64,000 nt of DNA. Source: Escherichia coli (GTDB lineage: Bacteria > Pseudomonadota > Gammaproteobacteria > Enterobacterales > Enterobacteriaceae). The stretch lies in assembly GCF_044324785.1 (NCBI RefSeq), contig NZ_CP172127.1, one strand, 5' to 3'. Within the stretch, counting starts at the first letter, position 1. Each line of letters starts with the position of its first letter. The notes beneath the pieces were generated by a model, which was not told the origin of the DNA, ran no database searches, and saw only the letters and a list, made by a program, of their open reading frames with translations. The translations under genes and the position numbers were made by a program. This document shows positions 30,240-51,978 of this stretch, in pieces.

Positions 30240-30740
30240 ATGAGCAAAAAATTTGAAGGCAGCGTCGCGCCTCGCGAGCGTATAAATATATCCTATGTCC
30301 CGAAGACAGACGGCCAGACGGCTGAAGTGGAGCTTCCGCTTAACATGCTCGTTGTCGGCGATACCGGAAATACGCAGGAGACATCCCCACTGGATGAACG
30401 TCAGGCAGTTTCCGTTAACAAGCACAATTTCGGTGCGGTGATGGCTGAAGCAGCCATTGGCCTCAATTTTACCGTCCCCGCCACGCTGAAGGGAAGCACA
30501 ACGGACGATGAACTGAATGTGGCGCTGAATATCAAATCACTGGATGATTTTTCACCAGATAGCGTGGCCCGGCAGGTTCCGGAAGTGAATAAATTGCTGG
30601 AACTGCGTGAAGCACTGACTGCACTGAAGGGGCCGATGGGTAACCTTCCGGCATTCCGTACCCAGCTCCAGGCATTGCTGGAAAATGAAGAGTCCCGCGA
30701 GCAGTTGCTCAAAGAAATCGGCCGGGTGAGCAATAAATAA
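30240..30740 (+). CDS. tssB: T6SS contractile sheath small subunit TssB (VipA/ImpB)
   Basis: 166-aa ORF MSKKFEGSVAPRERINISYVPKTDGQTAEVELPLNMLVVGD... Confidence 0.9.
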   Translation: MSKKFEGSVAPRERINISYVPKTDGQTAEVELPLNMLVVGDTGNTQETSPLDERQAVSVNKHNFGAVMAEAAIGLNFTVPATLKGSTTDDELNVALNIKSLDDFSPDSVARQVPEVNKLLELREALTALKGPMGNLPAFRTQLQALLENEESREQLLKEIGRVSNK

Positions 30741-30774
30741 CCACCACTATTTCATTAAACAGGGTTATCCAGGC

Positions 30775-30999
30775 ATGACGGCACACAAAAATATCTCCGG
30801 GACATACCACCTCTCTGTTGCAGACATTCTGCAGGTGGTTTACCAGGTATGTTTCAGCCCGTCCGTTGAAATCAACCAGGATGGTGTGGCTGCGCTGATT
30901 ACAACACTGGATCGCCGTATCAGTGATCTATTGGATGAGATTATCCATTTTTGTGAGTTTCAGCAGAGCGCGTCGCACTGGCAGCGCGTACTTCACTGA
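30775..30999 (+). CDS. Small ORF resembling the TssC N-terminal region (possible gene remnant or accessory mini-protein)
   Basis: 74-aa ORF; ...NQDGVAALITTLDRRISDLLDEIIHFCEFQQSASHWQRV aligns with TssC residues ...NKLAVDSMIADIDERISRQMDVIIHAPAFQQVESFWRSL from the adjacent tssC. Confidence 0.4.
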   Translation: MTAHKNISGTYHLSVADILQVVYQVCFSPSVEINQDGVAALITTLDRRISDLLDEIIHFCEFQQSASHWQRVLH

Positions 31000-31049
31000 T
31001 GGCGAAAAGCCGGTTTCAGACACACAGCTAAAACAGAAGGATTTTCAGT

Positions 31050-32525: not shown

Positions 32526-32531
32526 CACGCC

Positions 32532-32945
32532 ATGATACCGGATCGGGAAAGAACCACAGGTTCTCTTTTTGAGCGTATGGAAGCCTCACCGGCCAGAAAC
32601 TGGCAGGGAAGCAGTATTCATGCGCTCAGGCAGTCCATTCGCCAGAACCTGCGAAACATTCTTAATACCCGGTCCGGTAGTTGCCGGGGTGCGCCTGAAC
32701 TGGGCATTGATGAACCGGAAGGGGCTGAAAACTTCCGCGAATCAATGAGTCTGGCCATCGCGCAATGTATAGAACGCTATGAACCCCGGATCTCACACGC
32801 TGAAGTGCAGGCAGTGGTTTCATCCGCCACCAACCCGCTGGATATGACGTTTCATATTACAGCCTGGGTGACATTTAACGAAACGCATGAAGTGCTTGAA
32901 TTTGATATGGCACCGAATGGCAGCCAACATTATCGGGTGGACTGA
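32532..32945 (+). CDS. tssE: T6SS baseplate protein TssE (gp25-like)
   Basis: 137-aa ORF MIPDRERTTGSLFERMEASPARNWQGSSIHALRQSIRQNLRNILNTR... Confidence 0.88.
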   Translation: MIPDRERTTGSLFERMEASPARNWQGSSIHALRQSIRQNLRNILNTRSGSCRGAPELGIDEPEGAENFRESMSLAIAQCIERYEPRISHAEVQAVVSSATNPLDMTFHITAWVTFNETHEVLEFDMAPNGSQHYRVD

Positions 32946-32948
32946 CAG

Positions 32949-34799
32949 ATGGAATTTGAAGAACGCTATTTCCGGGAAGAACTCGATTACCTGCGCCAGC
33001 TCAGCAAGCTGCTGGCAACGGAAAAACCCCATCTTGCCCGCTTCCTGGCCGAAAAAGATGCGGATCCGGATATTGAACGCCTGCTGGAAGGCGTGGCTTT
33101 TCTTACCGGCAATCTCCGCCAGAAAATTGAGGATGAATTCCCAGAACTGACGCACGGGCTTATTAAGATGCTCTGGCCTAATTACCTGCGTCCGGTTCCG
33201 GCAATGACCCTTATTGAATATACGCCGGATATGGATAAGTCTTCTGTGCCGGTGTTAATCCCCCGTAATGAGCAGCTTACAACCAACGCCGGGGAAATCA
33301 GAGTCGATGAAGTGCTGCCCTCCGATGCTAAAAAGGAGGAGCCGCCTCCCTGTACCTTCACCCTCTGCCGGGATATCTGGCTGCTGCCCGTTCGCCTGGA
33401 GCAGATTGAAAACCGCAGTACGACCCGTAATGGTGTTATCAACATCACCTTTTCGGTCGCACCGGGAACGGACTTCCGCACGCTGGATCTGAACAAACTT
33501 CGCTTCTGGCTCGGCAATGACGACAACTATACCCGTGACCAGCTTTATTTATGGTTCTGTGAATACTTGCAGGGTGCCGACCTGACTGTGGGTGAACAGC
33601 ATATTCGCCTGCCTGAGTTTATGCTGAAAGCTGTCGGTTTTGAGCCGCAGGATGCCATGCTGCCTTGGCCGAAAAACGTCCACAGCGGCTACCGGATCCT
33701 TCAGGAGTATTTCTGTTACCCGGATGCGTTTCTCTTTTTTGATCTTTGTGGTTGCCCGGCGTTGCCTGACGGATTGCAGGGTGAATCCTTTACCCTACAA
33801 CTGCGTTTTTCGCGCCCATTGCCCGTGGACATCCGGTTGCGCCGCGACTCCCTGCGCCTGTATTGCGCGCCTGCCATTAATTTATTTATCCACCATGCAG
33901 AAGCCATCACGCTGAACAACCGGCGGGCAGACTATCCGCTGGTTCCCAGCCGCCATTATCCGGAACATTACGATGTCTTTTCCGTTAACGGCGTGATAAG
34001 CCAGGTGCAGGATATGTTCAGGAAAAAAGATCTGGGGCGTCCTGTTTCGACGCAGGCCGCGCGCCAGTGGCCTGCCTTTGAAAGTTTCAGCCATCAGATG
34101 GAATACAGCCGGAAGCGGGAAGTGGTGTACTGGCATCACCGGACCAAAACATCCCTGTTCCATCGCGGCTTTGATCATACCCTTGCTTTTATACATGCTG
34201 ATGGCAGTTATCCGTCAGACGAATCGCTGCTCAGTAATGAAGTGGTTTCGGTATCGCTGACCTGTACCAACCGTGAGCTTCCGTCACAAATTCGTTCCGG
34301 CGATATCACCGGCACAACCGGTAAAAATGCGGCTGTTGCTTCATTTCGCAACATTACCCGCCCGACGCAACCGCTCTGGCCGGTCATTGATGGCAGCCTG
34401 CACTGGTCCCTGCTCTCCGCCATGAACCTGAATTATCTGTCATTACTGGATACGGACGCGCTGAAGCAGGTCATCGCCAACTTTGATCGCCACGCAATCC
34501 ATCATCCGCAGACGGCGCGGCTGTCACAACAAAAGCTGGATGCCATTGAGCGTCTGGAGACCCGCCCCGTTGATCGCCTGTTTACGGGTATTCCCGTCCG
34601 GGGGCTGGCCTCCACGCTGTATCTGCACCCGGAGCCGTTTGTCTGTGAAGGGGAAATGTATCTGCTCGGTACGGTGCTTTCGCATTTTCTGTCGCTGTAC
34701 GCCAGCGTTAACTCATTCCACATGCTGACCGTTGTGAACACAGAAAGCCAGGAGACATGGAAATGGACGGAAAGAACCGGGCAGCATCCTCTTATCTGA
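32949..34799 (+). CDS. tssF: T6SS baseplate protein TssF (ImpG/VasA)
   Basis: 616-aa ORF MEFEERYFREELDYLRQLSKLLATEKPHLARFLAEKDADPDIERLLEGVAFLTGNLRQKIEDEFPE... Confidence 0.9.
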   Translation: MEFEERYFREELDYLRQLSKLLATEKPHLARFLAEKDADPDIERLLEGVAFLTGNLRQKIEDEFPELTHGLIKMLWPNYLRPVPAMTLIEYTPDMDKSSVPVLIPRNEQLTTNAGEIRVDEVLPSDAKKEEPPPCTFTLCRDIWLLPVRLEQIENRSTTRNGVINITFSVAPGTDFRTLDLNKLRFWLGNDDNYTRDQLYLWFCEYLQGADLTVGEQHIRLPEFMLKAVGFEPQDAMLPWPKNVHSGYRILQEYFCYPDAFLFFDLCGCPALPDGLQGESFTLQLRFSRPLPVDIRLRRDSLRLYCAPAINLFIHHAEAITLNNRRADYPLVPSRHYPEHYDVFSVNGVISQVQDMFRKKDLGRPVSTQAARQWPAFESFSHQMEYSRKREVVYWHHRTKTSLFHRGFDHTLAFIHADGSYPSDESLLSNEVVSVSLTCTNRELPSQIRSGDITGTTGKNAAVASFRNITRPTQPLWPVIDGSLHWSLLSAMNLNYLSLLDTDALKQVIANFDRHAIHHPQTARLSQQKLDAIERLETRPVDRLFTGIPVRGLASTLYLHPEPFVCEGEMYLLGTVLSHFLSLYASVNSFHMLTVVNTESQETWKWTERTGQHPLI

Positions 34800-35845
34800 G
34801 TCCGGGAAATCCCCCGGCAGATAAAGAGCAGAATGATCCGCTGGTACAGGTTTTTCATAACGCCTGCTCTTACAATTTTTTTGCGATGGCGGAGCTGTTG
34901 CACCGCCTGGCACAGGGTGAAAAGGGGACGCCGGAATTATCCCTGCGCGACGATCCGGCACAGGAAACCCTGCGTTTCAGCGCCGATGCCAGCCTTGCGT
35001 TTCCCCTGAGTGATATCAGTGCGCTGAAACGGGATACGTCAGGGGCATTCAGGATGACCACCACCTTTATGGGGTTACAGGGGAGCCAGTCGCCTCTCCC
35101 CGGTTATTACCTCGATCACCTGGCCTGGAAAGCGGTACATGAACAAAGTCCGGTAGGTGATTTTCTGGATATGTTCAGCCACCGCTTGACCCAGTTTGTC
35201 TGGCATATCTGGCGTAAGTACCGCTATCACATCAGTTTTCGTAACGGCGGTGTGGATGCGTTCTCGCAGCGCATGTACTCCCTTGTTGGGCTGGGCCACC
35301 GCCAGCTTCGCGATAAGCTGGCGATTAATCACAGCAAAATGCTGGCGTATTCCGGGATCCTGGCAAATCCGGGACGATCCCCGGAAATAATCTGCGGCCT
35401 GGTGTCCCACTGCTTTGATTTGTCAGACGTGACGCTGCAAAACTGGCAACGTCGCAAGGTGGATATTGAACCGGATCAGCAAAACAGTCTGGGGAGCTAT
35501 TCACTTAAAAATGGCGAAAAACTGGCGGGAAGATCGGTACTGGGCAACTTTGTTCTGGGTACACGGGTGCCCGATCTCAGCGGAAAATTCCAGCTCAGTA
35601 TTACCAGTCTGACCCGAAAACAGTTCCTCTCTTTTCTGCCGTCCGGCGAAAACTTCCTGCCACTGACGATGTTTGTGTCCTTCATCCTGCGCGATCAGCT
35701 TGCCTGGGACTTACATCTGGGGCTGGCGCCGGAGCAGGTGGGCGCAATGCGCCTGGGCGATAACAAAAGTGCGCTGCTGGGCTGGACCAGCTTCCTCGGC
35801 ACACCGGAAGAACGACCCTCAGTCACCATCAGGGTACGGTCGTAA
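34757..35845 (+). CDS. tssG: T6SS baseplate protein TssG (ImpH/VasB)
   Basis: 362-aa ORF overlapping the tssF 3' end by 43 nt; ...VQVFHNACSYNFFAMAELLHRLAQ... region typical of TssG. The exact start is uncertain. Confidence 0.85.
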   Translation: MEMDGKNRAASSYLSPGNPPADKEQNDPLVQVFHNACSYNFFAMAELLHRLAQGEKGTPELSLRDDPAQETLRFSADASLAFPLSDISALKRDTSGAFRMTTTFMGLQGSQSPLPGYYLDHLAWKAVHEQSPVGDFLDMFSHRLTQFVWHIWRKYRYHISFRNGGVDAFSQRMYSLVGLGHRQLRDKLAINHSKMLAYSGILANPGRSPEIICGLVSHCFDLSDVTLQNWQRRKVDIEPDQQNSLGSYSLKNGEKLAGRSVLGNFVLGTRVPDLSGKFQLSITSLTRKQFLSFLPSGENFLPLTMFVSFILRDQLAWDLHLGLAPEQVGAMRLGDNKSALLGWTSFLGTPEERPSVTIRVRS

Positions 35846-35869: not shown

Positions 35870-37150
35870 ATGCCGGAAGAGAAACTACAGACGCTTTCAT
35901 TGCAGGTCATTAACGGCAGTGAGCTGGAAAGCGGGCGGGCGGCGCGCTGTCTGTTCACGCAGCAGGGACATGTCGGCCATGGCCCCGAATGCCACTGGTC
36001 GGTACAGGATCGTCAGCAGAGCATTCCGGCTCAGGCTTTTACCGTTATCCTGCACGATGGCACATTTTGTCTGCGCCCGCAGACGGCACAACTGTGGCTG
36101 AACCAGGCAAAAGTCACAGCAATATCAGACCTGATACAGCTGCGCCAGGGCGATGAGATCCAGATAGGGCGTCTGATGGTGAGGGTTCATCTGAACCGGG
36201 GAGATATCCCCCATTACGATGAGGAAATGGCCACTCCCGAAACCATCGTCACCAATCGCGATATGCTCACGGATACCCTGCTGTCAACGGAGGGTGCGCC
36301 ACACTATCCGGGAATGACTCACCGGCATCAGCTTGCAGACACCGTGGTAAACGGTTTTTCTGCCGATCCACTCCAGGCACTTCAGTCCGAAAGCCTGATT
36401 ACCACGGGCGATCCGCTTTCAGGCATTGCGGCTGTCCGGCCATCGGCACCGCTGTCCGATCCGGCAAGTAATGGGGGGATCAATACTCCGTTTATGGATC
36501 TGCCGCCCATTTATGCCAGCCCCGGCGATCGTAATGATGACTTCTCTGTGGCAGAAATGGCGCAACGCCACCTTGCGGTCACCCCCTTACTGCGCGGTCT
36601 CGGCGGCTCGCTTACCGTGAGCAATTCTGACGATGCGGATGATTTTCTGGAAGAGGCCGGACGCACGTTACAGGCCGCAATAAAAGGTCTGCTCGATTTG
36701 CAGCAACAGCGTAACAGCCTCTCAGACAAACATTTGCGCCCGCTGGAAGATAACCCGCTGCGCCTGAACATGGATTACGCCACCGCGCTCGACGTGATGT
36801 TTGCCGAAGGTAAAAGTCCGGTACATCTGGCGGCTCCCGCCGCTGTCAGTGAAAGCCTGCGTAATGTCCGCCACCACGAAGAAGCTAACCGGGCAGCGAT
36901 TGTGGAGTCACTTCGTGTCCTGCTTGACGCTTTCTCACCACAAAATCTGCTGCGCCGCTTTGTGCAGTACCGCCGCAGCCATGAACTGCGCCAGCCGCTG
37001 GATGATGCCGGAGCATGGCAAATGTACAGCCATTATTACGAAGAACTGGCCTCCGATCGCCAGCAGGGGTTTGAGATGCTGTTTAACGAGGTCTACGCCC
37101 AGGTCTATGACCGGGTGCTTCGTGAAAAACAGCGGGAGCCGGAAGCATGA
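35870..37150 (+). CDS. tagH: FHA-domain protein TagH (Fha)
   Basis: ORF 35849..37150; the start at 35870 is preferred (ggag RBS 7 nt upstream). The N-terminal ~110 aa look like an FHA domain (...FCLRPQTAQLWLNQAKVTAISDLIQLRQGDEIQIGRLMVRVHL). Confidence 0.8.
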   Translation: MPEEKLQTLSLQVINGSELESGRAARCLFTQQGHVGHGPECHWSVQDRQQSIPAQAFTVILHDGTFCLRPQTAQLWLNQAKVTAISDLIQLRQGDEIQIGRLMVRVHLNRGDIPHYDEEMATPETIVTNRDMLTDTLLSTEGAPHYPGMTHRHQLADTVVNGFSADPLQALQSESLITTGDPLSGIAAVRPSAPLSDPASNGGINTPFMDLPPIYASPGDRNDDFSVAEMAQRHLAVTPLLRGLGGSLTVSNSDDADDFLEEAGRTLQAAIKGLLDLQQQRNSLSDKHLRPLEDNPLRLNMDYATALDVMFAEGKSPVHLAAPAAVSESLRNVRHHEEANRAAIVESLRVLLDAFSPQNLLRRFVQYRRSHELRQPLDDAGAWQMYSHYYEELASDRQQGFEMLFNEVYAQVYDRVLREKQREPEA

Positions 37151-37671
37151 ACAGGAAGGCGTTTCTGGCCTGCGTGCTGATGTGCGTCATATTAACCGGC
37201 TGCGAAACGGCGAAAAAAATCAGCGAGGTGATCAAAAACCCGGATATCCAGGTCGGGAGCCTGAAGGAGCAACCTTCGGAAATAACCGTCACCCTGCTGA
37301 CCGAACCGGACACCAATACCAATGCGGAGGGTGAATCAGCCGCCGTGGATGTGCAACTGGTGTACCTGACTGACGACTCAAAATTGCTGGCAGCCGACTA
37401 TGACCAGATAGCCAGTACGCCGCTACCGGATGTGTTGGGTAAAAACTATATCGACCACCAGGATTTCAACCTGTTGCCGGACACCATCAAAACCCTGCCG
37501 CCGGTAAAGCTGGATGAGAAAACGCAGTTTATTGGTGTCGTGGCCTATTTCTCCGATGACCAGGCCACTGAATGGAAACAAATCGAGACGGTGGAAGGAA
37601 CCGGCCACCATTACCGCCTGCTGGTGCATGTACGTCAAAGCAGCATCGAAATGAAAAAAGAGGATGAATAA
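37147..37671 (+). CDS. tssJ: T6SS outer-membrane lipoprotein TssJ (SciN)
   Basis: 174-aa ORF MNRKAFLACVLMCVILTGCETAKK... with lipobox LTGC; start overlaps the tagH stop (ATGA). Confidence 0.85.
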   Translation: MNRKAFLACVLMCVILTGCETAKKISEVIKNPDIQVGSLKEQPSEITVTLLTEPDTNTNAEGESAAVDVQLVYLTDDSKLLAADYDQIASTPLPDVLGKNYIDHQDFNLLPDTIKTLPPVKLDEKTQFIGVVAYFSDDQATEWKQIETVEGTGHHYRLLVHVRQSSIEMKKEDE

Positions 37672-37673
37672 TT

Positions 37674-39005
37674 ATGGCAACCACCCGCAACAAGGTGATG
37701 TGGCAGGAAGGGATGCTGATGCGCCCACACCATTTCCAGCAACAGCAGCGTTACAACGACTACCTGGATAACCAGCGCTTCCGGGCCATGAATGATTTAT
37801 CCTGGGGATTTACCGAACTCACCCTCAACAATGAACTGCTGGCGCAGGGTAAGATCATGATTGACAGCGCGTCAGGCACACTGCCCGACGGCACCGTCTT
37901 TTCTATCCCCGACCAGGACGCACTGCCCGATCCGCTGCACCCGCAACATTTTCCGGACGAAAGAAGCCGCAATATCTACCTCGCTCTGCCGGTCGCCAGT
38001 GATGTGAGAAATGAAATCAGCGACGGGCGGCGAATCGGGCGTTACCGGCTGAATTATGCCGATGTCCGGGATCTGCATTCAGAAGAAGGTGACGCGCGAA
38101 CATTGACGCTGGGTCAACTGACGCCGCGCATTATGAGCGGTGCAGAAGATATGAGCGCCTATATTACGCTCCCGCTTTGCCGTATCAGCGATCGCCATGC
38201 CGACGGCTCACTGACGCTGGATGACGATTTTATCCCCTCCTGCCAGAATATTCAGGTCAGTAAGAAACTGCGTGTTTATCTCAAAGAGGTACAGGGGGCC
38301 ATTGGCGGACGGGCAAGCGATCTGGCAAACCGCATTGGCTCTCCGGCGCAGAGCGGCATCGCGGATGTGGCGGAATTTATGATGTTGCAGTTACTTAACC
38401 GTAACCAGACCCGGTTTACCCATCGCGCTCGTCGATCCCAGCTCCACCCGGAAGATTTCTACCTTGATCTTGCCGGGTTGCTGGGTGAACTGATGACCTT
38501 TACCGAGCCGTCGCGCCTGCCCTGCCCGCTTGATGTGTATGATCATCATGACCTGACCAAAACATTTAAAACGCTGTTACCGGAAGTCAAACGGGCGCTG
38601 CATACCGTACTGTCGCCAAGAGCCGTCAATCTGCCGCTACATCTGCGTGACGGTATCTGGCAGGCCGATATTCATGACACAGAACTGCTGCAATCTGCCA
38701 CCTTTGTCCTGGCCGTGGCGGCAAACATGCCGGTCGATCAGATCCAGCGCCAGTTTATCCAGCAGTCGAAAATTTCCTCGCCGGAAAAAATCCGCAATAT
38801 GGTCAGTGTGCAGATACCCGGCATTCCATTGCGTGCCCTGATGGTGGCTCCCCGCCAGCTTCCTTACCATTCCGGGTTCAGCTATTTCGAACTCGACAAG
38901 AGCGGACAGGCCTGGACAGAAATGGCTGCCGCCGGGGCCGTTGCACTGCATGTATCCGGCAGTTTCCCGGATCTGAACATGCAACTGTGGGCGATAAGAG
39001 GGTAA
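37674..39005 (+). CDS. tssK: T6SS baseplate protein TssK
   Basis: 443-aa ORF MATTRNKVMWQEGMLMRPHHFQQQQRYNDYLDNQRF... Confidence 0.9.
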   Translation: MATTRNKVMWQEGMLMRPHHFQQQQRYNDYLDNQRFRAMNDLSWGFTELTLNNELLAQGKIMIDSASGTLPDGTVFSIPDQDALPDPLHPQHFPDERSRNIYLALPVASDVRNEISDGRRIGRYRLNYADVRDLHSEEGDARTLTLGQLTPRIMSGAEDMSAYITLPLCRISDRHADGSLTLDDDFIPSCQNIQVSKKLRVYLKEVQGAIGGRASDLANRIGSPAQSGIADVAEFMMLQLLNRNQTRFTHRARRSQLHPEDFYLDLAGLLGELMTFTEPSRLPCPLDVYDHHDLTKTFKTLLPEVKRALHTVLSPRAVNLPLHLRDGIWQADIHDTELLQSATFVLAVAANMPVDQIQRQFIQQSKISSPEKIRNMVSVQIPGIPLRALMVAPRQLPYHSGFSYFELDKSGQAWTEMAAAGAVALHVSGSFPDLNMQLWAIRG

Positions 39006-39009
39006 GACG

Positions 39010-39771
39010 ATGGATGAGGGGTCACTGTCTCTGCCACCATTTACCGGATACGACGAAAAAAGCCAGCGCGACTATCATCTCGCGCTTCGTGGCAACAGCC
39101 TGAATCCGATGATCGACGCAGCCACGCCGCTCCTCGGTATGGTGATGCGCCTTTCAACCATGAACAGCCAGACGATGCCGGAGCATCTTTTTGCTCAGGT
39201 GGTGACGGATGTTCAGGCCGTGGAGCAACTGCTTCAGGAGCAGGGCTACGAACCGGGCGTGATTATCTCGTTTCGCTACATCCTCTGCACGTTTATTGAT
39301 GAAGCGGCGCTCGGTAACGGCTGGTCGAACAAGAACGAGTGGATCAAGCAGTCATTGCTGGTCCATTTCCACAACGAAGCCTGGGGTGGCGAGAAGGTTT
39401 TCATCCTGCTGGAGCGCCTGATCCGTGAACCCAAACGTTACCAAGATCTGCTGGAATTTCTCTGGCTCTGTTTTTCTCTGGGATTTCGCGGGCGCTACAA
39501 AGTGGCAGCACAGGATCAGGGGGAATTTGAGCAGATCTACCGCCGCCTGTACCACGTCCTGCATAAACTGCGCGGCGATGCCCCTTTCCCGCTGTTACAC
39601 CAGGACAAAAAAACCCAGGGCGGGCGTTATCAGCTCATCAGTCGCCTGACCATTAAACATATTTTTTGTGGTGGCGTTGTCGTGCTGGCGTTGTTTTACC
39701 TGTTCTATCTGTTGCGGCTGGACAGCCAGACGCAGGACATCCTGCACCAGCTAAACAAATTACTTCGATAA
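39010..39771 (+). CDS. tssL: T6SS membrane complex protein TssL (DotU/ImpK family, no OmpA-like extension)
   Basis: 253-aa ORF with a C-terminal TM helix (IFCGGVVVLALFYLFYLL). Confidence 0.88.
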   Translation: MDEGSLSLPPFTGYDEKSQRDYHLALRGNSLNPMIDAATPLLGMVMRLSTMNSQTMPEHLFAQVVTDVQAVEQLLQEQGYEPGVIISFRYILCTFIDEAALGNGWSNKNEWIKQSLLVHFHNEAWGGEKVFILLERLIREPKRYQDLLEFLWLCFSLGFRGRYKVAAQDQGEFEQIYRRLYHVLHKLRGDAPFPLLHQDKKTQGGRYQLISRLTIKHIFCGGVVVLALFYLFYLLRLDSQTQDILHQLNKLLR

Positions 39772-39779
39772 GGACGTTT

Positions 39780-42563
39780 ATGATCCAGATTGATCTTCCC
39801 ACGCTGGTAAAACGGCTTAACCTGTTCTCCCGCCAGGCGCTGGAGATGGCCGCCTCTGAATGTATGAGCCAGCAGGCAGCGGAAATTACCGTCAGCCATG
39901 TGCTTATTCAGATGCTCGCCATGCCACGCAGTGACCTGCGGGTTATTACCCGCCAGGGCGATATTGGCATGGAAGAGTTGCGCCAGGCGCTGACGGTGGA
40001 GAACTACACAACTGCCCGTTCTGCGGACAGCTACCCGGCATTTTCCCCGATGCTGGTTGAGTGGCTGAAAGAGGGCTGGCTGCTGGCGTCGGCTGAGATG
40101 CAGCACAGCGAATTGCGTGGCGGCGTGTTGCTGCTGGCCCTGCTGCATTCGCCGCTGCGTTATATACCGCCTGCTGCCGCCCGGCTGTTGACCGGCATTA
40201 ACCGTGACCGTCTGCAACAGGACTTTGTGCAGTGGACACAGGAGTCGGCGGAATCAGTCGTGCCGGATGCAGACGGTAAAGGCGCAGGCACACTGACGGA
40301 CGCTGCTGACACCCTGCTTGCCCGCTACGCCAAAAACATGACCGCAGACGCCCGTAACGGCAGGCTTGACCCGGTACTGTGCCGCGACCACGAAATCGAC
40401 CTGATGATCGACATTCTCTGCCGCCGCCGCAAGAACAACCCGGTGGTGGTGGGCGAAGCAGGCGTGGGTAAAAGTGCCTTAATCGAAGGGCTGGCGCTGC
40501 GCATCGTGGCAGGCCAGGTGCCGGACAAACTGAAAAACACCGATATCATGACCCTTGACCTGGGCGCATTGCAGGCCGGGGCGTCGGTGAAGGGCGAATT
40601 CGAAAAACGCTTCAAGGGGCTGATGGCGGAGGTCATTTCCTCTCCGGTGCCGGTCATTCTGTTTATTGACGAAGCACATACCCTGATTGGCGCGGGCAAC
40701 CAGCAGGGCGGGCTGGATATCTCCAACCTGCTCAAACCGGCGCTGGCGCGCGGCGAGCTGAAAACCATCGCCGCCACCACCTGGAGCGAGTACAAAAAAT
40801 ACTTCGAGAAAGATGCCGCCCTGTCGCGCCGCTTCCAGTTGGTGAAGGTCAGCGAACCCAACGCCGCCGAAGCCACCATTATTCTGCGCGGTCTGTCGGC
40901 GGTCTATGAACAGTCTCACGGCGTGCTGATTGACGATGACGCCTTACAGGCCGCAGCAACACTGAGCGAGCGTTATCTCTCCGGGCGTCAGTTGCCGGAC
41001 AAGGCGATTGATGTACTGGATACGGCCTGCGCCCGTGTGGCCATCAACCTGTCATCGCCACCAAAGCAAATCTCGGCGCTGACCACCCTGAGCCACCAGC
41101 AGGAGGCGGAAATTCGCCAGCTTGAGCGCGAGCTTCGCATCGGGCTGCGTACCGACAACTCACGGATGACGGAGGTGTTGGTGCAGTACGATGAAACGCT
41201 GACGGCGCTGGATGAACTGGAAGCGGCCTGGCATCAGCAGCAGACGCTGGTCCAGGAAATTATCGCGCTGCGCCAGCAGTTACTGGGCGTGGCAGAAGAC
41301 GATGCGGCGTCGTTGCCGGACGCAGATGCCGCGGAGGATACGCCGCCAGAGTCAGAGTCAGAGTCAGAGTCAGAGTCAGAACAGGATAATACCGGTGCCG
41401 TACCGGCTGATGAGGCCGACAGAGAACAGCCGGAAGAGACCGCTGAAACAGTTTCCCCGGTACAGCGGCTGGCCCAGCTCACTGCCGAACTGGACGCCCT
41501 GCATAACGACCGGTTGCTGGTCTCCCCGCACGTCGATAAAAAACAGATTGCGGCGGTGATTGCCGAATGGACCGGCGTACCGCTTAACCGCCTGTCACAG
41601 AATGAAATGTCGGTCATCACCGACCTGCCAAAATGGCTGGGCGACACCATCAAAGGCCAGGACCTGGCGGTTGCGAGCCTGCATAAACACCTGCTGACCG
41701 CACGCGCCGACCTGCGCCGTCCGGGACGCCCGCTTGGCGCGTTCCTGCTGGCTGGCCCCAGCGGCGTGGGTAAAACCGAAACCGTCCTGCAACTGGCGGA
41801 ACTCCTCTACGGCGGTCGCCAGTACCTGACTACCATCAATATGTCCGAGTTTCAGGAGAAGCACACCGTCTCGCGACTGATTGGTTCCCCTCCGGGCTAT
41901 GTCGGCTACGGAGAAGGCGGTGTACTGACCGAAGCGATCCGCCAGAAACCCTACTCGGTGGTGTTGCTCGATGAAGTGGAAAAAGCGCACCCGGATGTGC
42001 TCAACCTGTTCTACCAGGCGTTTGACAAGGGCGAGATGGCAGACGGTGAAGGCCGCCTGATTGACTGTAAAAATATCGTTTTCTTCCTGACCTCCAACCT
42101 TGGCTACCAGGTGATTGTCGAACACGCCGATGACCCGGAAACCATGCAGGAAGCCCTCTATCCGGTGCTGGCGGACTTCTTTAAACCTGCCCTGCTGGCG
42201 CGCATGGAAGTGGTGCCTTACCTGCCGCTGTCGAAAGAGACGCTCGCTACCATTATTGCCGGGAAACTGGCCCGCCTGGATAACGTGCTGCGCAGCCGCT
42301 TTGGCGCGGACGTGATTATTGAGCCGGAAGTGACGGACGAAATCATGAGCCGCGTCACCCGCGCGGAAAACGGCGCGAGGATGCTCGAATCGGTCATCGA
42401 TGGCGACATGCTGCCGCCGCTCTCGCTGCTGCTGTTGCAGAAAATGGCGGCCAACACGGCGATTGCCCGCATCCGCCTGTCGGCGGCAGACGGCGCGTTC
42501 ACGGCAGACGTGGAAGATGCTCAGGACAACGAGTCCGTTACAGAGGATGAAACGGTTTTATGA
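39780..42563 (+). CDS. clpV: T6SS AAA+ ATPase ClpV (TssH)
   Basis: Start taken at MIQIDLPTLVKRLN (39780), 9 nt after the tssL stop. Two AAA modules with Walker A motifs (GEAGVGKSA and GPSGVGKTE). The ORF-track extension from 39666 overlaps tssL and is not credible. Confidence 0.9.
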   Translation: MIQIDLPTLVKRLNLFSRQALEMAASECMSQQAAEITVSHVLIQMLAMPRSDLRVITRQGDIGMEELRQALTVENYTTARSADSYPAFSPMLVEWLKEGWLLASAEMQHSELRGGVLLLALLHSPLRYIPPAAARLLTGINRDRLQQDFVQWTQESAESVVPDADGKGAGTLTDAADTLLARYAKNMTADARNGRLDPVLCRDHEIDLMIDILCRRRKNNPVVVGEAGVGKSALIEGLALRIVAGQVPDKLKNTDIMTLDLGALQAGASVKGEFEKRFKGLMAEVISSPVPVILFIDEAHTLIGAGNQQGGLDISNLLKPALARGELKTIAATTWSEYKKYFEKDAALSRRFQLVKVSEPNAAEATIILRGLSAVYEQSHGVLIDDDALQAAATLSERYLSGRQLPDKAIDVLDTACARVAINLSSPPKQISALTTLSHQQEAEIRQLERELRIGLRTDNSRMTEVLVQYDETLTALDELEAAWHQQQTLVQEIIALRQQLLGVAEDDAASLPDADAAEDTPPESESESESESEQDNTGAVPADEADREQPEETAETVSPVQRLAQLTAELDALHNDRLLVSPHVDKKQIAAVIAEWTGVPLNRLSQNEMSVITDLPKWLGDTIKGQDLAVASLHKHLLTARADLRRPGRPLGAFLLAGPSGVGKTETVLQLAELLYGGRQYLTTINMSEFQEKHTVSRLIGSPPGYVGYGEGGVLTEAIRQKPYSVVLLDEVEKAHPDVLNLFYQAFDKGEMADGEGRLIDCKNIVFFLTSNLGYQVIVEHADDPETMQEALYPVLADFFKPALLARMEVVPYLPLSKETLATIIAGKLARLDNVLRSRFGADVIIEPEVTDEIMSRVTRAENGARMLESVIDGDMLPPLSLLLLQKMAANTAIARIRLSAADGAFTADVEDAQDNESVTEDETVL
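41347..41378 (+). repeat. Hexanucleotide tandem repeat (gagtca x5) inside clpV encoding (Ser-Glu)5
   Basis: gagtcagagtcagagtcagagtcagagtcaga encodes ESESESESESE in an acidic, Pro-rich stretch between the ClpV AAA modules. Confidence 0.8.
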
Positions 42564-43303
42564 GCAGGTTGCGCGTTTTCCGGCAGACAGGATGGTTTAT
42601 CGCGGGCCTGATGGCGGGCTTACCCGCCAGTGCCGCGCCCGCAGAAACATCGTCAATGGCCGGTGTGGCGGTAGCTGTTGCCACGGCGACCCCGCCGGAT
42701 GCGGCAGCCACGTTACAGGCCATGCAGTCCTGTCGGCGGGAGTCCGCGGCGCTGGAGCGGCTTGACTGCTATGACCGCCTGCTGGAACCGCTGTCCCCGT
42801 CAGGGTTTGACGGGGCGCTGGTCAAAGCCGGTTTTGTGGGCGAAGCCTGGACCCGCGCCACAGAGCAGGAAAAACACCGCCAGGGCAACACCACAGAGCT
42901 GCTGGTGACGCAGGTGCCGGGGGAACGCCCGACGGTGGTGATAACCACCCCGGCTATCGGCCATGTTCCGCCACGCCCGGTGCTGATGTTCAGTTGCGTG
43001 GACAATATCACCCGAATGCAGGTGGCGCTGATGCACCCTCTGGATGTCCATGATATCGCCGTCACCCTGAATACCGACAGCCGGGCATTGCGCAGCCACT
43101 GGTTTGTGCGCGAGAACGGCACCCTGCTGGAGTCCAGCCGGGGGCTGTCCGGGATTGATGAAATTAAGCAACTGTTCGGCGCAAAAACGCTGACGGTGGA
43201 TACCGGCGCAGACAATGCCGCCGGAAAGCTGACCTTTAACATTGACGGGCTGGCACAGGTTATTGCGCCGCTACGCGACGCCTGCCACTGGGCGGGAGAA
43301 TAA
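42560..43303 (+). CDS. T6SS-associated periplasmic protein (VasI-like)
   Basis: 247-aa ORF with signal peptide (MSRLRVFRQTGWFIAGLMAGLPASAAPA). It lies between clpV and tssA, the position VasI occupies in the Vibrio cholerae cluster; start overlaps the clpV stop. Confidence 0.65.
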   Translation: MSRLRVFRQTGWFIAGLMAGLPASAAPAETSSMAGVAVAVATATPPDAAATLQAMQSCRRESAALERLDCYDRLLEPLSPSGFDGALVKAGFVGEAWTRATEQEKHRQGNTTELLVTQVPGERPTVVITTPAIGHVPPRPVLMFSCVDNITRMQVALMHPLDVHDIAVTLNTDSRALRSHWFVRENGTLLESSRGLSGIDEIKQLFGAKTLTVDTGADNAAGKLTFNIDGLAQVIAPLRDACHWAGE

Positions 43304-43307
43304 AAAT

Positions 43308-44723
43308 ATGGCAATGGACTTACGTAATCCTGATGTATGGCTTGCACACTTGCTGGAAAACCTGCCGGAAGAGAAGCTGACATCGGCGCTGAAAGATGAT
43401 AACCCGGACTGGGAGTATATCGACGGTGAAATAGTCAAGCTGGGGTCTCTGGCCCACGCTCAGCTTGATATTCCCGAACTACAACGCAGGGGGCTACAGC
43501 TTCTGGCTTCTGAAAGCAAAGACTTCCGGCTACTGGCACATCTACTCAGAACCCTGCAACACGCCGGTGATCCTCATCTCGCATTGCGCCTGCTGGCGCT
43601 GTATGTGGAGCATTACTGGGTGGTGGCCGCGCCGCAGAATATGGCGCATAAAAAACGCTTTGCCAGCCAGGTCATTAAACGCTTTGAAACAGGTATTGAA
43701 GGCTTTTCACAGAACGCCGCCACAGCGCAGCGCGATGCGCTATTAGGTGAACTGGCGAAACTGGCGCAGTGCTGGCAGTCACATAACGCCCCGGAACTGG
43801 CACAGGCTACCGATGATCTTTTTGCCCTGTACCAGCGAGCTTTTAATCGTGCGGCTCCTGCTCTCGCCCCCACTTCTGCGGCCTCCAGTAGACCACAACA
43901 GACCACCGTCACGTCTGAAAGCGACGTGATGCAAACCAGTATTCCGACTCCACAGGTCACCATTGACAGCCACAACGATAAAGCCTGGCGCGACACGCTG
44001 TTAAAAGTGGCAGCCATCTTATGCGAGCGCCAGCCGGAATCGCCGCAGGGCTATCGCCTGCGCCGCCATGCCCTGTGGCAATCCATCACCAGTACGCCTC
44101 AGGCGGAAAGCGACGGACGTACCCCACTGGCCGCAGTCTCCGCCGATATGGTTGCGGATTACCAGTCCCGGCTTGCCAGCGCGGATATGGCGCTGTGGCA
44201 GCAGGTGGAGAAAAGCGTACTACTGGCTCCCTACTGGCTGGATGGCCACTGTCTTTCTGCACAGACCGCGCACCGTCTTGGCTATACCGCCGTGGCCGAT
44301 GCCATCCGCGATGAAGTCGTTTCCTTTCTTGGCCGTCTGCCCGCTCTTGCCGATCTTCTCTTTAACGACCGCACACCGTTTGTTTCAGAAAAAACTAAGC
44401 AGTGGCTTGCGTCTCAGGCTGGCAACCCGGCAGCTCCGGTCATACAGGCGAGTAATGAAAATATTCAAGCTGCGCGAGCGTGTTTTGATGAACATGGGCT
44501 GGAGGCCGCCTTACGGTATCTAAACACTTTGCCCGATGGTGACCCTCGCAACCAGTTTCATCGCCAGTATTTTAGTGCGCAGCTTATGGAAGAGGCGGGA
44601 CTGATACAGCTTGCACAGCAGCAGTACCGAATGCTGTTCAGGTTGGCTGGAGAAATGATGGTTATTGACTGGGAGCCGTCTTTACTTACGCAGCTCGAAC
44701 AAAAATTCACGGCAGAATACTAA
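43308..44723 (+). CDS. tssA: T6SS protein TssA (ImpA family; VasJ-like)
   Basis: Start taken at MAMDLRNPDVWLAHLLENLPEEK (43308; the ORF-track start at 43242 overlaps the upstream gene). ImpA N-terminal-like region, about 471 aa. Confidence 0.82.
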   Translation: MAMDLRNPDVWLAHLLENLPEEKLTSALKDDNPDWEYIDGEIVKLGSLAHAQLDIPELQRRGLQLLASESKDFRLLAHLLRTLQHAGDPHLALRLLALYVEHYWVVAAPQNMAHKKRFASQVIKRFETGIEGFSQNAATAQRDALLGELAKLAQCWQSHNAPELAQATDDLFALYQRAFNRAAPALAPTSAASSRPQQTTVTSESDVMQTSIPTPQVTIDSHNDKAWRDTLLKVAAILCERQPESPQGYRLRRHALWQSITSTPQAESDGRTPLAAVSADMVADYQSRLASADMALWQQVEKSVLLAPYWLDGHCLSAQTAHRLGYTAVADAIRDEVVSFLGRLPALADLLFNDRTPFVSEKTKQWLASQAGNPAAPVIQASNENIQAARACFDEHGLEAALRYLNTLPDGDPRNQFHRQYFSAQLMEEAGLIQLAQQQYRMLFRLAGEMMVIDWEPSLLTQLEQKFTAEY

Positions 44724-44741: not shown

Positions 44742-47700
44742 GTGTTCAAATTACCAACCCCGCGACTCTTCAGCGGACTCAAATCAGCCCTTCGGCCAGC
44801 CATGCCCAGGTTTAAAGTCTCCGCGTTCTGGCTGCTGATTCTGGCGTGGATTTTTCTGCTGGTATGGATCTGGTGGAAAGGCCCGGCCTGGACACTGTAT
44901 GAAGAGCAGTGGCTCAAGCCACTGGCGAACCGCTGGCTGGCCACGGCAGCGTGGGGTATTGTTGCCCTGATATGGCTTATTGTCAGGGTGATGAAGCGCC
45001 TGCAACAGCTTGAAAAACAGCAAAAACAACAGCGCGAGGAAGCCATTGATCCGCTCAGTGTGGAACTGAACGCCCAGCAGCGTTACCTCGACCGCTGGCT
45101 GCTGCGCCTGCAACGCCATCTCGACAACCGCCGTTTCCTGTGGCAATTGCCGTGGTATATGGTCATCGGCCCGGTGGGTAGTGGCAAAACGACACTGCTG
45201 CGCGAGGGTTTTCCATCAGACATTATTTATGCCCCGGAGGGCGCGCGCGGCACAGAACAACGCCTGTACCTCACGCCCCATGTTGGTAAACAGGCGGTGA
45301 TCTTTGATATCGACGGCACACTCTGCGCCCCCGCAGATGCGGATATCCTGCATCGCCGTCTGTGGGAAAATGCCCTCGGCTGGCTGAAGGAAAAGCGCGC
45401 GCGCCAGCCGCTGAACGGGATTATTCTGACACTCGATTTACCCGATCTGCTGACCGCAGACAAACGCCGCCGCGAGCATCTGTTACAGACGCTGCGCAGC
45501 CGCTTGCAGGATATACGCCAGCATCTTCACTGCCAGTTACCGGTTTACGTGGTACTTACCCGGCTTGATTTATTGCAGGGTTTTGCCGCCCTGTTTCAGT
45601 CCCTGAACAGACAGGATCGCGATGCGATTCTGGGCGTCACGTTCACCCGCCGTGCCCATGAAAATGATGACTGGCGAACAGAGTTGAATGCGTTCTGGCA
45701 GACATGGGTGGATCGAATGAATCTGGCGTTGCCGGATCTGATGGTCACCCAGACTCACACCCGCGCGTCTTTATTCAGTTTTTCCCGCCAGATGCAGGGA
45801 AGCCGTGAACCGCTGGTGTCACTGCTTGAGGGTCTGCTTGACGGTGAAAATATGAACGTAATGCTGCGTGGTGTCTATCTCACCTCTTCGCTTCAGCGCG
45901 GGCAGATGGATGATATATTCACCCAGTCTGCCGCCCGCCAGTACCGGCTGGGCAATAACCCACTGGCATCCTGGCCCCTGGTGGACACCGCGCCTTATTT
46001 CACCCGCAGCCTGTTCCCGCAGGCATTACTCGCAGAGCCTAATCTGGCAACAGAGAGCCGCGCCTGGCTGATGCGTTCCCGTCGCCGCCTGACGGTTTTC
46101 TCTGCCACCGGCGGCGTGGCGGCACTGCTGCTCATCACCGGCTGGAATCACTATTACAACGGTAACTATCAGTCCGGCATCACCGTGCTTAAGCAGGCCA
46201 AAGCCTTTATGGACGTGCTGCCTCCGCAGGGGGAAGATGACTACGGCAACCTGCAACTGCCGCTGCTGAACCCGGTACGCGATGCCACACTGGCCTATGG
46301 CGACTGGGGCGACCGCAGCCGTCTGGCCGATATGGGACTGTACCAGGGGCGACGTATCGGGCCATATGTGGAACAGACCTATCTGCAACTGCTGGAGCAG
46401 CGTTACCTGCCCTCGCTGTTTAACGGGCTGGTCAAAGCGATGAATGCCGCGCCGCCGGAGAGTGAAGAAAAACTCGCGGTGCTGCGCGTGATGCGAATGC
46501 TGGAGGACAAAAGCGGACGTAACAATGAGGTGGTGAAGCAGTATATGGCAAAACGCTGGAGCGAAAAATTCCACGGCCAGCGCGATATCCAGGCACAACT
46601 GATGTCCCATCTTGACTACGCGCTGGCTCATACTGACTGGCATGCAGAGCGTCAGGCGGGCGACGGTGACGCCATCAGCCGCTGGACGCCATATGACAAG
46701 CCCGTGGTATCAGCACAGAAAGAACTGAGCAAACTGCCTGTCTACCAGCGGGTTTACCAGAGCCTGAAAACGCGGGCGCTGGGCGTTCTTCCTGCTGATC
46801 TCAATTTGCGTGACCAGGTAGGACCAACCTTTGACCAGGTGTTTACATCTGCCGATGACAACAAACTGGTTGTTCCACAGTTTCTTACCCGTTACGGCCT
46901 GCAAAGCTATTTTGTAAAACAGCGCGATGAACTGGTTGAACTGACGGCGATGGATTCCTGGGTACTCAACCTCACCCGCAGCGTGAAATACAGTGACGCC
47001 GACCGCGCGGAAATCCAGCGCCAGTTGACCGAGCAGTATATCAGCGACTACACCGCCACCTGGCGGGCCGGGATGGACAATCTGAATATCCGCAATTTTG
47101 AGTCCATCGGACAACTGACCGGGGCGCTGGAGCAGGTTATCAGCGGCGACCAGCCTTTGCAGCGGGCGCTGACCGTGCTGCGTGACAACACACAGCCAGG
47201 CGTCTTTTCTGAAAAACTCTCTGCCAAAGAGCGGGATGAGGCCCTGGCAGAGCCGGATTACCAGTTACTCACCCGCCTCGGGCATGAATTCGCCCCGGAA
47301 AACAGTACCCTGACAGTACAGAAAGACAAAGAAAGCACGATGCAGGCCGTATACCAGCAGCTCACCGAGTTACACCGCTACCTGCTGGCAATCCAGAACG
47401 CGCCTGTACCAGGGAAATCGGCGCTGAAAGCAGTGCAATTACGGCTGGATCAGAACAGCAGCGATCCAATATTCGCTACCCGACAGATGGCAAAAACGCT
47501 GCCTGCTCCGCTCAACCGCTGGGTTGGCAGGCTGGCTGACCAGGCCTGGCATGTGGTGATGGTGGAAGCCGTTCACTATATGGAAGTGGACTGGCGCGAC
47601 AGCGTGGTGAAACCGTTTAACGAGCAACTGGCAAATAACTATCCGTTTAATCCACGTTCTGCACAGGATGCCTCACTGGATGCCTTCGAACGCTTCTTTA

Positions 47701-48266: not shown

Positions 48267-48276
48267 GGCGGCAGGG

Positions 48277-50132: not shown

Positions 50133-50152
50133 AAATATCTGGGATTATTATA

Positions 50153-51854: not shown

Positions 51855-51978
51855 CTCACATGCAATTCACTGGCAATATATATTATAATTTTATAAAAAA
51901 TCATATTTACATTATAGAAATACTCAGCTCCTGTTTGCTGCCCGCCCTAAACTACAGGCGGCAGCATAACAATAACGA

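What the first reader, a model, noticed from the sequence alone, without database searches (positions are those of the whole stretch)
35870..43303. Fha present without a PpkA/PppA kinase–phosphatase pair, and no VasH activator
The cluster encodes an FHA-domain protein (TagH/Fha) but no Ser/Thr kinase or phosphatase and no sigma-54 enhancer-binding protein is recognisable anywhere in the island. This suggests Fha acts as a structural or scaffolding component, or is controlled by a kinase encoded elsewhere, and that regulation differs from the Pseudomonas H1 and Vibrio paradigms.
Basis: partly seen in the sequence, partly recalled or inferred. Interest (0 to 1): 0.35.

Follow-up and report, generated by a model that had tools for sequence, protein, structure and literature searches.

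The report
E. coli T6SS Fha without kinase or VasH
This is the common aspV-linked type VI secretion island of E. coli; it has an Fha/TagH protein but no kinase, phosphatase or VasH activator, which is true but already reported, and Fha most likely acts as a phosphorylation-independent assembly scaffold.

Summary
The window is an E. coli chromosome. Its T6SS island lies between yafV and tRNA-Asp (aspV). It encodes TagH/Fha (35870-37150), and no Ser/Thr kinase, PP2C phosphatase or sigma-54 activator was found. This holds for HMM scans of every island ORF and for a six-frame tblastn of all 64 kb with real PpkA, PppA and VasH queries. clpV and vasI overlap by 4 nt at the position where vasH sits in Vibrio.

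It is not new. The literature already lists E. coli O157, which has the same aspV cluster, and V. cholerae as having Fha without PpkA/PppA. So only the missing VasH departs from the Vibrio pattern.

My additions:
- The TagH N-terminus has a confident FHA fold but none of the four canonical phosphothreonine-binding residues (R/S/H/N become H37/P53/A56/A73). TagH relatives from kinase-containing clusters keep all four.
- TagH has the FHA, disordered-region and helical C-domain layout of the published Fha condensate scaffold.
- Related Enterobacterales show either no vasH or a VasH that lacks its AAA+ domain.

Best reading: TagH is a phospho-independent scaffold, and control is transcriptional, by H-NS silencing as shown in EHEC. 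The finding is ordinary and of low interest.

The parts
35870..37150 (+). tagH/fha, T6SS-associated FHA protein, 426 aa
   Evidence: TIGR03354 scores 339.8 bits. PF20232 scores 2e-41 and PF00498 scores 22.3 bits. RefSeq calls the N3 ortholog tagH.
35888..36199 (+). FHA-fold domain (aa 7-110) with a degenerate pThr pocket: H37, P53, A56 and A73 replace R, S, H and N
   Evidence: AF2 pLDDT is above 90. Foldseek TM-score to solved FHA domains reaches 0.85. Alignments to kinase-linked TagH proteins give the residue mapping.
36218..36547 (+). Predicted disordered linker of TagH (aa 117-226), rich in P, D, T and S
   Evidence: AF2 pLDDT is below 50. Composition was counted.
36548..37147 (+). Helical C-terminal T6SS_FHA_C domain of TagH, the most conserved part
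   Evidence: PF20232 covers aa 249-422. AF2 predicts helices. Mean identity among group A orthologs is 82%, against 54% for the FHA domain.
37147..37671 (+). tssJ lipoprotein
   Evidence: PF12790
37674..39005 (+). tssK baseplate subunit
   Evidence: PF05936
39010..39771 (+). tssL (DotU)
   Evidence: PF09850
39780..42563 (+). clpV/tssH ATPase. The true ATG is at 39780, not the TTG at 39666.
   Evidence: AAA_2 and ClpB_D2-small domains. The N-terminus MIQIDLP matches orthologs.
42560..42563 (+). clpV stop and vasI start overlap (ATGA). This is the position occupied by vasH in Vibrio-type clusters, and no remnant is left.
   Evidence: Sequence read. VasH lies between clpV and vasI in L004, L005, L088 and L089.
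42560..43303 (+). vasI
   Evidence: PF11319 scores 3e-53 and covers aa 58-244. No other domain was found.
43308..44723 (+). tssA (VasJ)
   Evidence: ImpA_N and T6SS_VasJ domains
44742..48266 (+). tssM (IcmF). The start codon is uncertain.
   Evidence: IcmF-related domains
48187..49626 (+). vasL, a TssA-like protein with ImpA_N and VasL domains and no kinase domain
30240..35845 (+). tssB, tssC, tssE, tssF and tssG (sheath and baseplate), upstream of tagH
29544..30239 (.). AT-rich divergent promoter region between hcp (-) and tssB (+). It is 67% A+T, against 46% for the island. It is a likely H-NS target and has no sigma-54 consensus.
   Evidence: H-NS silencing of the EHEC ortholog cluster is reported in PMC5363993.
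22411..29543 (-). hcp, vgrG and rhs effector operon
49653..51854 (+). A second hcp, a 312-aa putative effector, an LprI-like putative immunity protein and a 118-aa ORF. None has a kinase, phosphatase or EBP domain.
53106..53182 (-). tRNA-Asp (aspV), the right border of the island. yafV at 19641-20420 is the left flank.

Best explanation
The region is the core of the widespread aspV-linked E. coli T6SS. It is called the T6SS-2 type in PMC10711316 and has a V. cholerae-like gene order. It belongs to a lineage of T6SS clusters that never carry the PpkA/PppA threonine-phosphorylation pathway. Within that lineage it sits in a sub-branch (Escherichia, Citrobacter, Enterobacter and relatives) that has also lost the sigma-54 activator VasH.

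TagH/Fha is kept because it is an assembly factor, not a phospho-switch. By analogy with V. cholerae and A. citrulli Fha, I infer that its FHA-fold domain, disordered linker and helical, probably membrane-associating, C-domain nucleate or scaffold the membrane complex and baseplate. Binding would not depend on phosphothreonine, because the four canonical pThr-contacting residues are all replaced.

On/off control is therefore transcriptional. It acts at the AT-rich hcp/tssB divergent promoter, which is silenced by H-NS. That silencing was shown for the EHEC ortholog and is inferred here.

What is shown here: the gene content, the absences, the fold, the residue substitutions and the comparative distribution. 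What is inferred: the scaffold or condensate function, phospho-independence in vivo, and H-NS control in this strain.
For: - Absence of kinase, phosphatase and EBP: and RefSeq annotation.
- Identity of the locus: 99.7% to E. coli N3. The segment is present in 2933 of 5426 complete E. coli genomes. The island is bounded by yafV and tRNA-Asp.
- TagH structure: an FHA fold at high confidence, an IDR and a helical C-domain. This is the same three-part layout as the Fha scaffold of bioRxiv 10.1101/2023.12.21.572528. That preprint also reports that V. cholerae Fha forms condensates and is needed for TssG foci.
- pThr pocket: the positions equal to P. aeruginosa Fha1 R32 and S48 are H37 and P53, with the same 16-residue spacing. 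The canonical His and Asn positions are A56 and A73.
- Context of relatives: TagH relatives with R/S/H/N sit in clusters encoding PP2C and Pkinase. Relatives with Ser at the Arg position sit in VasH/VasI clusters with no kinase in view.
- None of 80 Enterobacterales and Pasteurellaceae loci has a PpkA or PppA hit within about 10 kb.
- The FHA domain evolves faster than the C-domain (54% against 82% identity).
- V. cholerae TagH is required for Hcp secretion, yet no phosphorylation of it was detected (PMC8993066).
- The EHEC aspV T6SS secretes Hcp once hns is deleted (PMC5363993).
Against: - In V. cholerae, alanine substitutions at TagH S38 and K54, the same two positions, reduce Hcp secretion. 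The authors read this as phosphopeptide binding (PMC8993066), so a non-canonical pocket may still matter.
- E. coli carries a Hanks-type kinase and PP2C pair, yegI and pphC, elsewhere.
- No experiment on E. coli TagH was found.
- The kinase co-occurrence sample is small: two informative canonical loci and three Ser-type proteins (four loci).
- H-NS control is extrapolated from EDL933.
Confidence: 0.6

Rival explanations
1. TagH is still a phospho-reader. A kinase encoded outside the island, such as YegI with the phosphatase PphC, phosphorylates TssL or another partner, and TagH binds that mark through a non-canonical pocket.
For: yegI and pphC are annotated as a Ser/Thr kinase and a PP2C phosphatase in K-12. 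They are present in 5416 of 5426 E. coli genomes. They are characterised in bioRxiv 10.1101/819920 and 10.1101/303594. V. cholerae TagH S38A and K54A mutants lose Hcp secretion (PMC8993066). The review PMC10482370 suggests unidentified kinases.
Against: All four canonical pThr-contacting residues are replaced, and the Ser position is a proline. yegI and pphC are core genes that are also present in K-12, for which PMC2492809 reports no T6SS orthologs, while only 2933 of 5426 genomes carry the T6SS segment, so there is no co-inheritance. No phosphorylation of V. cholerae TagH was detected (PMC8993066). The FHA domain is the fast-evolving part of the protein.
Confidence: 0.2
2. The missing regulators reflect decay. 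The cluster is a degenerating, non-functional island and TagH is a relic.
For: The closest genome (N3) has frameshifted tssA, vasL and rhs. IS insertions interrupt the segment in several strains. T6SS loss or degeneration in E. coli lineages is reported (PMC10711316, PMC12981562). The EHEC cluster is nearly silent in vitro (PMC5363993).
Against: In this window all core genes are intact full-length ORFs with full domain coverage. The kinase-less and vasH-less layout, with clpV abutting vasI, is conserved across about 30 Enterobacteriaceae species. The EHEC ortholog secretes Hcp when hns is deleted (PMC5363993).
Confidence: 0.07
3. A kinase, phosphatase or sigma-54 activator is hidden in an unassigned or mis-called ORF of the island, for example in vasL or vasI.
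For: Several island ORFs have no Pfam family (312, 118, 266 and 132 aa). VasL has an unassigned central segment.
Against: Permissive Pfam (E<=10) and NCBIfam scans of those ORFs, VasL and VasI show no such domain. Six-frame tblastn with PpkA, PppA and VasH gave a best E of 0.23. The intergenic gaps are too short for a domain of about 170-250 aa.
Confidence: 0.02

Closest known systems
Vibrio cholerae large T6SS cluster (VCA0107-VCA0123; TagH/Fha = VCA0112)
   Same: The gene order is the same: tssB-C-E-F-G, fha, tssJ-K-L, clpV, vasI, tssA, tssM, vasL. Fha is present without PpkA or PppA (PMC10482370, PMC8993066). The Arg position of the FHA pocket is not Arg.
   Different: E. coli lacks vasH between clpV and vasI. 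Its TagH also lacks the His that Vibrio-type proteins keep, giving 0 of 4 canonical residues instead of about 1 of 4. No sigma-54 consensus was seen in the island, but that scan was uninformative (see Tried and rejected).
Pseudomonas aeruginosa H1-T6SS threonine phosphorylation pathway (TagQRST-PpkA-PppA-Fha1)
   Same: It has an Fha/TagH-family protein with an N-terminal FHA domain and a conserved C-domain, encoded beside tssJ, tssK and tssL.
   Different: There is no PpkA, PppA, TagF or TagQRST here. The residues equivalent to Fha1 R32 and S48 are His and Pro (mapping via PMC8993066).
EHEC O157:H7 EDL933 aspV T6SS (z0243-z0275)
   Same: It is also an aspV-associated island of about 37 kb with hcp, vgrG, clpV and icmF (PMC5363993). 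It is listed as an FHA-only cluster without PpkA/PppA (PMC8993066). This window's fha-vasI segment is found in 2933 complete E. coli genomes.
   Different: Strain-level differences in effectors and in rhs. I did not align EDL933 directly.
Fha condensate scaffold of Acidovorax citrulli (also tested for V. cholerae and P. aeruginosa Fha)
   Same: It has the FHA, IDR and helical C-domain architecture (compared with bioRxiv 10.1101/2023.12.21.572528).
   Different: The E. coli IDR is much shorter, about 110 aa against about 460 aa. A. citrulli has a PpkA axis (PMC12607579). Condensate formation by E. coli TagH is untested.

Membership tests
T6SS-associated FHA protein TagH/Fha (TIGR03354 / PF20232) | Full-length match to the TagH family model above its curated cutoff | tested here: met
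   TIGR03354 scores 339.8 bits against a cutoff of 120.25, covering aa 9-418.
T6SS-associated FHA protein TagH/Fha (TIGR03354 / PF20232) | N-terminal FHA fold | tested here: met
   PF00498 scores 22.3 bits against a cutoff of 20.7. The AF2 beta-sandwich has pLDDT above 90. Foldseek hits to GarA, Rv0020c, Rad53 and OdhI FHA domains have E about 1e-7 and TM-scores up to 0.85.
T6SS-associated FHA protein TagH/Fha (TIGR03354 / PF20232) | Encoded inside a T6SS cluster between tssG and tssJ | tested here: met
Threonine phosphorylation pathway (PpkA-PppA-Fha) | Hanks-type Ser/Thr kinase PpkA in the cluster | tested here: not met
   No Pkinase hit in any ORF. tblastn gave a best E of 0.86.
Threonine phosphorylation pathway (PpkA-PppA-Fha) | PP2C phosphatase PppA in the cluster | tested here: not met
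   No PP2C hit. tblastn gave a best E of 0.23.
Threonine phosphorylation pathway (PpkA-PppA-Fha) | FHA domain with canonical pThr-binding residues (Arg, Ser, His, Asn) | tested here: not met
   H37, P53, A56 and A73 occupy these positions, whereas kinase-linked TagH P0253, P0257 and P0223 have R, S, H and N.
Threonine phosphorylation pathway (PpkA-PppA-Fha) | Thr phosphorylation of Fha or TssL in vivo | not testable with these tools
   Needs Phos-tag or MS. It was negative for V. cholerae TagH (PMC8993066).
VasH/sigma-54-activated T6SS (V. cholerae, Aeromonas, V. fischeri) | bEBP with a Sigma54_activat AAA+ domain encoded between clpV and vasI | tested here: not met
   clpV and vasI overlap by 4 nt. 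There is no Sigma54_activat hit. tblastn with VasH gave a best E of 1.2.
VasH/sigma-54-activated T6SS (V. cholerae, Aeromonas, V. fischeri) | Sigma-54 (-24/-12) promoters in front of hcp or structural operons | tested here: inconclusive
   No TGGCAC-N5-TTGCW match with up to 2 mismatches lies in the island's intergenic regions, and the total is below chance. Two VasH-containing control loci also showed none upstream of tssB, so the scan does not discriminate.
VasH/sigma-54-activated T6SS (V. cholerae, Aeromonas, V. fischeri) | Synteny with the V. cholerae large cluster, including vasI, vasJ, vasK and vasL | tested here: met
   compared with the L004 gene order
E. coli aspV-linked T6SS ('T6SS-2' type) | Island at tRNA-Asp aspV with rhs, an FHA gene, two TssA-like genes and extra hcp genes | tested here: met
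   The description of this type is in PMC10711316, and the aspV link in PMC5363993.

The most novel reading that the evidence does not exclude
The Escherichia/Citrobacter-clade TagH has completely abandoned phosphothreonine recognition and works purely as a condensate or scaffold nucleator. It would then be a natural 'phospho-dead' FHA for separating the scaffold role of Fha from its signalling role. In parallel, Enterobacterales T6SS clusters record a stepwise dismantling of VasH. Vibrio-like clusters have the full bEBP. Yersinia, Photorhabdus, Xenorhabdus, Proteus and Morganella have a 262-265-aa protein made of the VasH N-domain plus HTH_8, without the AAA+ domain. Escherichia, Citrobacter, Enterobacter and Aggregatibacter have no gene. 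This implies a switch from sigma-54 activation to sigma-54-independent control, with derepression from H-NS.
Probability: 0.4. Interest if true: 0.35.

Novelty: already known. Interest (0 to 1): 0.17.

Why it matters
What Fha does in T6SSs that lack PpkA/PppA is still described as unclear (PMC8993066, PMC10482370). This very common E. coli system has an FHA fold with none of the canonical pThr-binding residues. It has no cluster-encoded kinase, phosphatase, TagF or VasH. That makes it a clean genetic background for testing whether Fha's essential role is scaffolding rather than phospho-signalling.

For annotation purposes, nothing is missing or mis-called. The absence of these regulators is the normal state of this cluster type.

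Tried and rejected
- PDB sequence search with TagH found no hits at E<=1, so fold comparison was used instead.
- The sigma-54 promoter scan found nothing in the island's intergenic regions. VasH-containing control loci L088 and L089 were equally empty upstream of tssB, so I do not count this as evidence. A loose GG-N10-GC scan was useless.
- The genome-contig scan returned only the 80 best loci, all Enterobacterales or Pasteurellaceae. It could not sample kinase-linked Fha clusters. The link between canonical residues and kinases therefore rests on a few encoding-contig look-ups. Three of these contigs (P0130, P0223, P0210) were too short to be informative.
- Bernard et al. 2011 on sigma-54 and EBPs in T6SS (PMC3133059) is not held.
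- PMC12981562 mentions neither TagH nor H-NS.
- PMC2492809 treats VasH as universally present on the basis of genome-wide orthology, so it is not informative about in-cluster vasH.
- The idea of a kinase hidden in vasL, vasI or the orphan ORFs is rejected.
- The idea that the TTG at 39666 starts clpV is rejected. The ATG at 39780 matches orthologs.
Full report
**What the window is.** The fha-vasI segment is 99.7% identical to E. coli strain N3. Similar DNA occurs in 2933 of 5426 complete E. coli genomes, and 2215 of these carry at least 80% of it. RefSeq annotation of the N3 locus, my Pfam scans and the tRNA scan agree on the layout. A T6SS island of about 32 kb is inserted between yafV (19641-20420) and tRNA-Asp aspV (53106-53182).

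Its genes, in order, are:
- an ISAs1 transposase remnant;
- rhs, vgrG and hcp on the minus strand;
- an AT-rich divergent promoter region;
- tssB, tssC, tssE, tssF, tssG, tagH, tssJ, tssK, tssL, clpV, vasI, tssA, tssM, vasL and hcp on the plus strand;
- a small putative effector/immunity module.

This is the aspV-associated T6SS described in EHEC EDL933 (PMC5363993). PMC10711316 calls the rhs-plus-FHA E. coli cluster the 'T6SS-2' type.

**Checking the observation.** The coordinates given (35870-43303) run exactly from the tagH start codon to the vasI stop. TagH is a clear family member: TIGR03354 scores 340 bits and PF20232 scores 2e-41. Its FHA domain barely passes Pfam, at 22.3 bits against a cutoff of 20.7. 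Close homologs carry only PF20232 in their precomputed annotations.

No island ORF hits a protein kinase, PP2C or sigma-54 interaction domain. This holds at E<=0.01. It also holds at E<=10 for the unassigned ORFs, VasL and VasI, and in NCBIfam.

As a check independent of gene calling, I took real PpkA, PppA and VasH sequences from related T6SS loci (L002, L003, L004). I ran tblastn with them against all six frames of the 64-kb window. The best E-value was 0.23. The clpV stop and vasI start overlap in ATGA, so not even a remnant of vasH remains where Vibrio-type clusters carry it.

**What TagH looks like.** The AlphaFold2 model has three parts:
- a beta-sandwich at aa 7-110 with pLDDT above 90;
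- a segment at aa 117-226 with pLDDT below 50, rich in P, D, T and S;
- a helical C-terminal domain at aa 227-425.

Foldseek against the PDB returns FHA domains almost exclusively among the top hits (GarA, OdhI, Rv0020c, Rad53 and MDC1), with E about 1e-7 and target TM-scores up to 0.85. The fold is therefore a genuine FHA fold.

This layout of FHA, IDR and helical C-domain is the one described for the Fha scaffold of Acidovorax citrulli. That study reports that Fha forms condensates recruiting membrane-complex and baseplate proteins. It also reports that V. cholerae Fha forms condensates and is required for TssG foci (bioRxiv 10.1101/2023.12.21.572528).

**The phosphothreonine pocket.** I aligned 95 full-length representatives from an exhaustive HMMER search and TagH from 80 genome loci. 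Only four sequences carry the canonical FHA residues, namely Gly-Arg, Ser-x-x-His and Ser-Thr-Asn-Gly. They are P0253 (which is L002), P0257 and P0223.

In E. coli TagH these positions are H37, P53, A56 and A73. A pairwise BLASTP alignment (E 3e-10) gives the same mapping. The spacing of 16 residues between the first two positions equals that of P. aeruginosa Fha1 R32/S48 and V. cholerae TagH S38/K54, as mapped in PMC8993066.

Vibrio-type relatives mostly have Ser at the Arg position but keep the His. The Escherichia/Citrobacter/Enterobacter clade keeps none of the four.

Within that clade the FHA domain is also the fast-evolving part. Its mean identity is 54%, against 82% for the C-domain.

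**Genomic context of relatives.**
- The two canonical-pocket TagH proteins with enough contig sit in clusters that encode PP2C and Pkinase genes next to tssM.
- Three Ser-type proteins (P0160, P0185, P0194; four loci) sit in clusters with a full VasH (Sigma54_activat plus HTH_8) adjacent to vasI, and with no kinase in view.
- Among 80 species-level genome loci, none has a PpkA or PppA hit within about 10 kb. They fall into two groups.
- In Escherichia, Citrobacter, Enterobacter, Lelliottia, Buttiauxella, Rahnella and relatives, and in Aggregatibacter, clpV abuts vasI and there is no vasH.
- In Yersinia, Photorhabdus, Xenorhabdus, Serratia, Proteus, Morganella and Providencia, a 262-265-aa ORF lies between clpV and vasI.
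- That ORF aligns to the N-terminal domain and to the C-terminal HTH_8 of VasH but lacks the whole sigma-54 AAA+ module. Databases call it only 'Fis family transcriptional regulator'.

The E. coli state therefore looks like the end point of a stepwise loss of VasH.

**Kinases elsewhere.** E. coli has a Hanks-type kinase and a PP2C phosphatase, yegI and pphC, at another locus (bioRxiv 10.1101/819920 and 10.1101/303594). That DNA is present in 5416 of 5426 genomes. This includes K-12, for which PMC2492809 reports no T6SS orthologs. Only 2933 genomes carry the T6SS segment. So a trans-acting kinase exists in principle, but nothing links it to the island.

**Regulation.** The 696-bp hcp/tssB intergenic region is 67% A+T, against 46% for the island. 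It carries only sigma-70-like matches, at about the chance rate. In EHEC the orthologous cluster is nearly silent in vitro. Deleting hns derepresses it (hcp-2 rises 60-fold) and Hcp secretion follows (PMC5363993). A sigma-54 consensus scan found nothing relevant. My positive controls were also empty, so I treat that test as uninformative.

**Comparison with what is known.** The first half of the finding is explicitly published. PMC8993066 states that some T6SS clusters, 'such as those of V. cholerae, E. coli O157, and Y. pestis', contain the FHA gene without PpkA and PppA. The review PMC10482370 says V. cholerae encodes neither enzyme, yet needs TagH for Hcp secretion, and no TagH phosphorylation was detected. 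So the absence of a kinase is the Vibrio pattern, not a departure from it. Only the absence of VasH differs.

I did not find a paper that states the vasH loss or the 0-of-4 pocket for E. coli. Both are small extensions of known facts about a well-annotated, very common locus.

**Verdict.** My best explanation, with confidence about 0.6, is that TagH is a phosphorylation-independent assembly scaffold. The system would then be controlled at the level of transcription, through H-NS silencing, rather than by the threonine phosphorylation pathway or VasH/sigma-54. Novelty is 'already known' and interest is low (0.17).

The most novel reading still open is a fully phospho-blind FHA scaffold combined with stepwise VasH dismantling across Enterobacterales. 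It would be of moderate interest if confirmed experimentally.

Noticed in passing
L041:16586-17383, L077:16577-17374, L084:13547-14335 (and about 45 other group B loci): In Yersinia, Photorhabdus, Xenorhabdus, Serratia, Proteus, Morganella and Providencia T6SS clusters, a 262-265-aa ORF sits between clpV and vasI and is translationally coupled to both. It aligns to the VasH N-terminal domain and HTH_8 but lacks the whole sigma-54 AAA+ domain. Databases name it only 'Fis family transcriptional regulator'.
   Followed up: partly
window 30775-30999 (+): A 74-aa ORF between tssB and tssC weakly resembles the N-terminal part of TssC (VipB positions 2-33, E 0.003; TIGR03355 positions 43-82). It may be a duplicated tssC fragment. 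RefSeq annotates it as hypothetical in strain N3.
   Followed up: no
window 35888-36199 compared with 36548-37147, and loci L008-L037: Among Enterobacteriaceae orthologs, the FHA domain of TagH is much less conserved (mean 54% identity) than the C-terminal domain (82%). It is about as variable as the disordered linker (58%).
   Followed up: partly
window 50000-52800: The island's right end is very AT-rich (33% GC at 50-52 kb). It holds hcp, a 312-aa ORF (RefSeq: peptidoglycan-binding protein), an LprI-like putative immunity gene, a 118-aa ORF and a 266-aa minus-strand ORF with no family. It looks like a separately acquired effector/immunity module.
   Followed up: no
window 20595-21550 (-): An ISAs1-family transposase split by an internal stop lies at the left border of the island, next to yafV.
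   Followed up: no
L001 (E. coli N3) compared with window 22411-26640, 43308-44723 and 48187-49626: In the closest complete genome (99.7% identity), rhs, tssA and vasL are annotated as frameshifted pseudogenes. The window has intact ORFs with full domain coverage. The N3 frameshifts could be real decay or assembly errors.
   Followed up: no
window 61329-61405 (-) and 62000-64000: A second tRNA-Asp lies just beyond dkgB, followed by a stretch with strong negative GC skew. From memory of the K-12 map, this is probably aspU at the end of an rRNA operon. I did not check it.
   Followed up: no
window 39666-39779: The mechanical ORF for clpV starts at a TTG at 39666 and overlaps tssL. The real start is the ATG at 39780 (MIQIDLP...), which matches orthologs.
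   Followed up: yes
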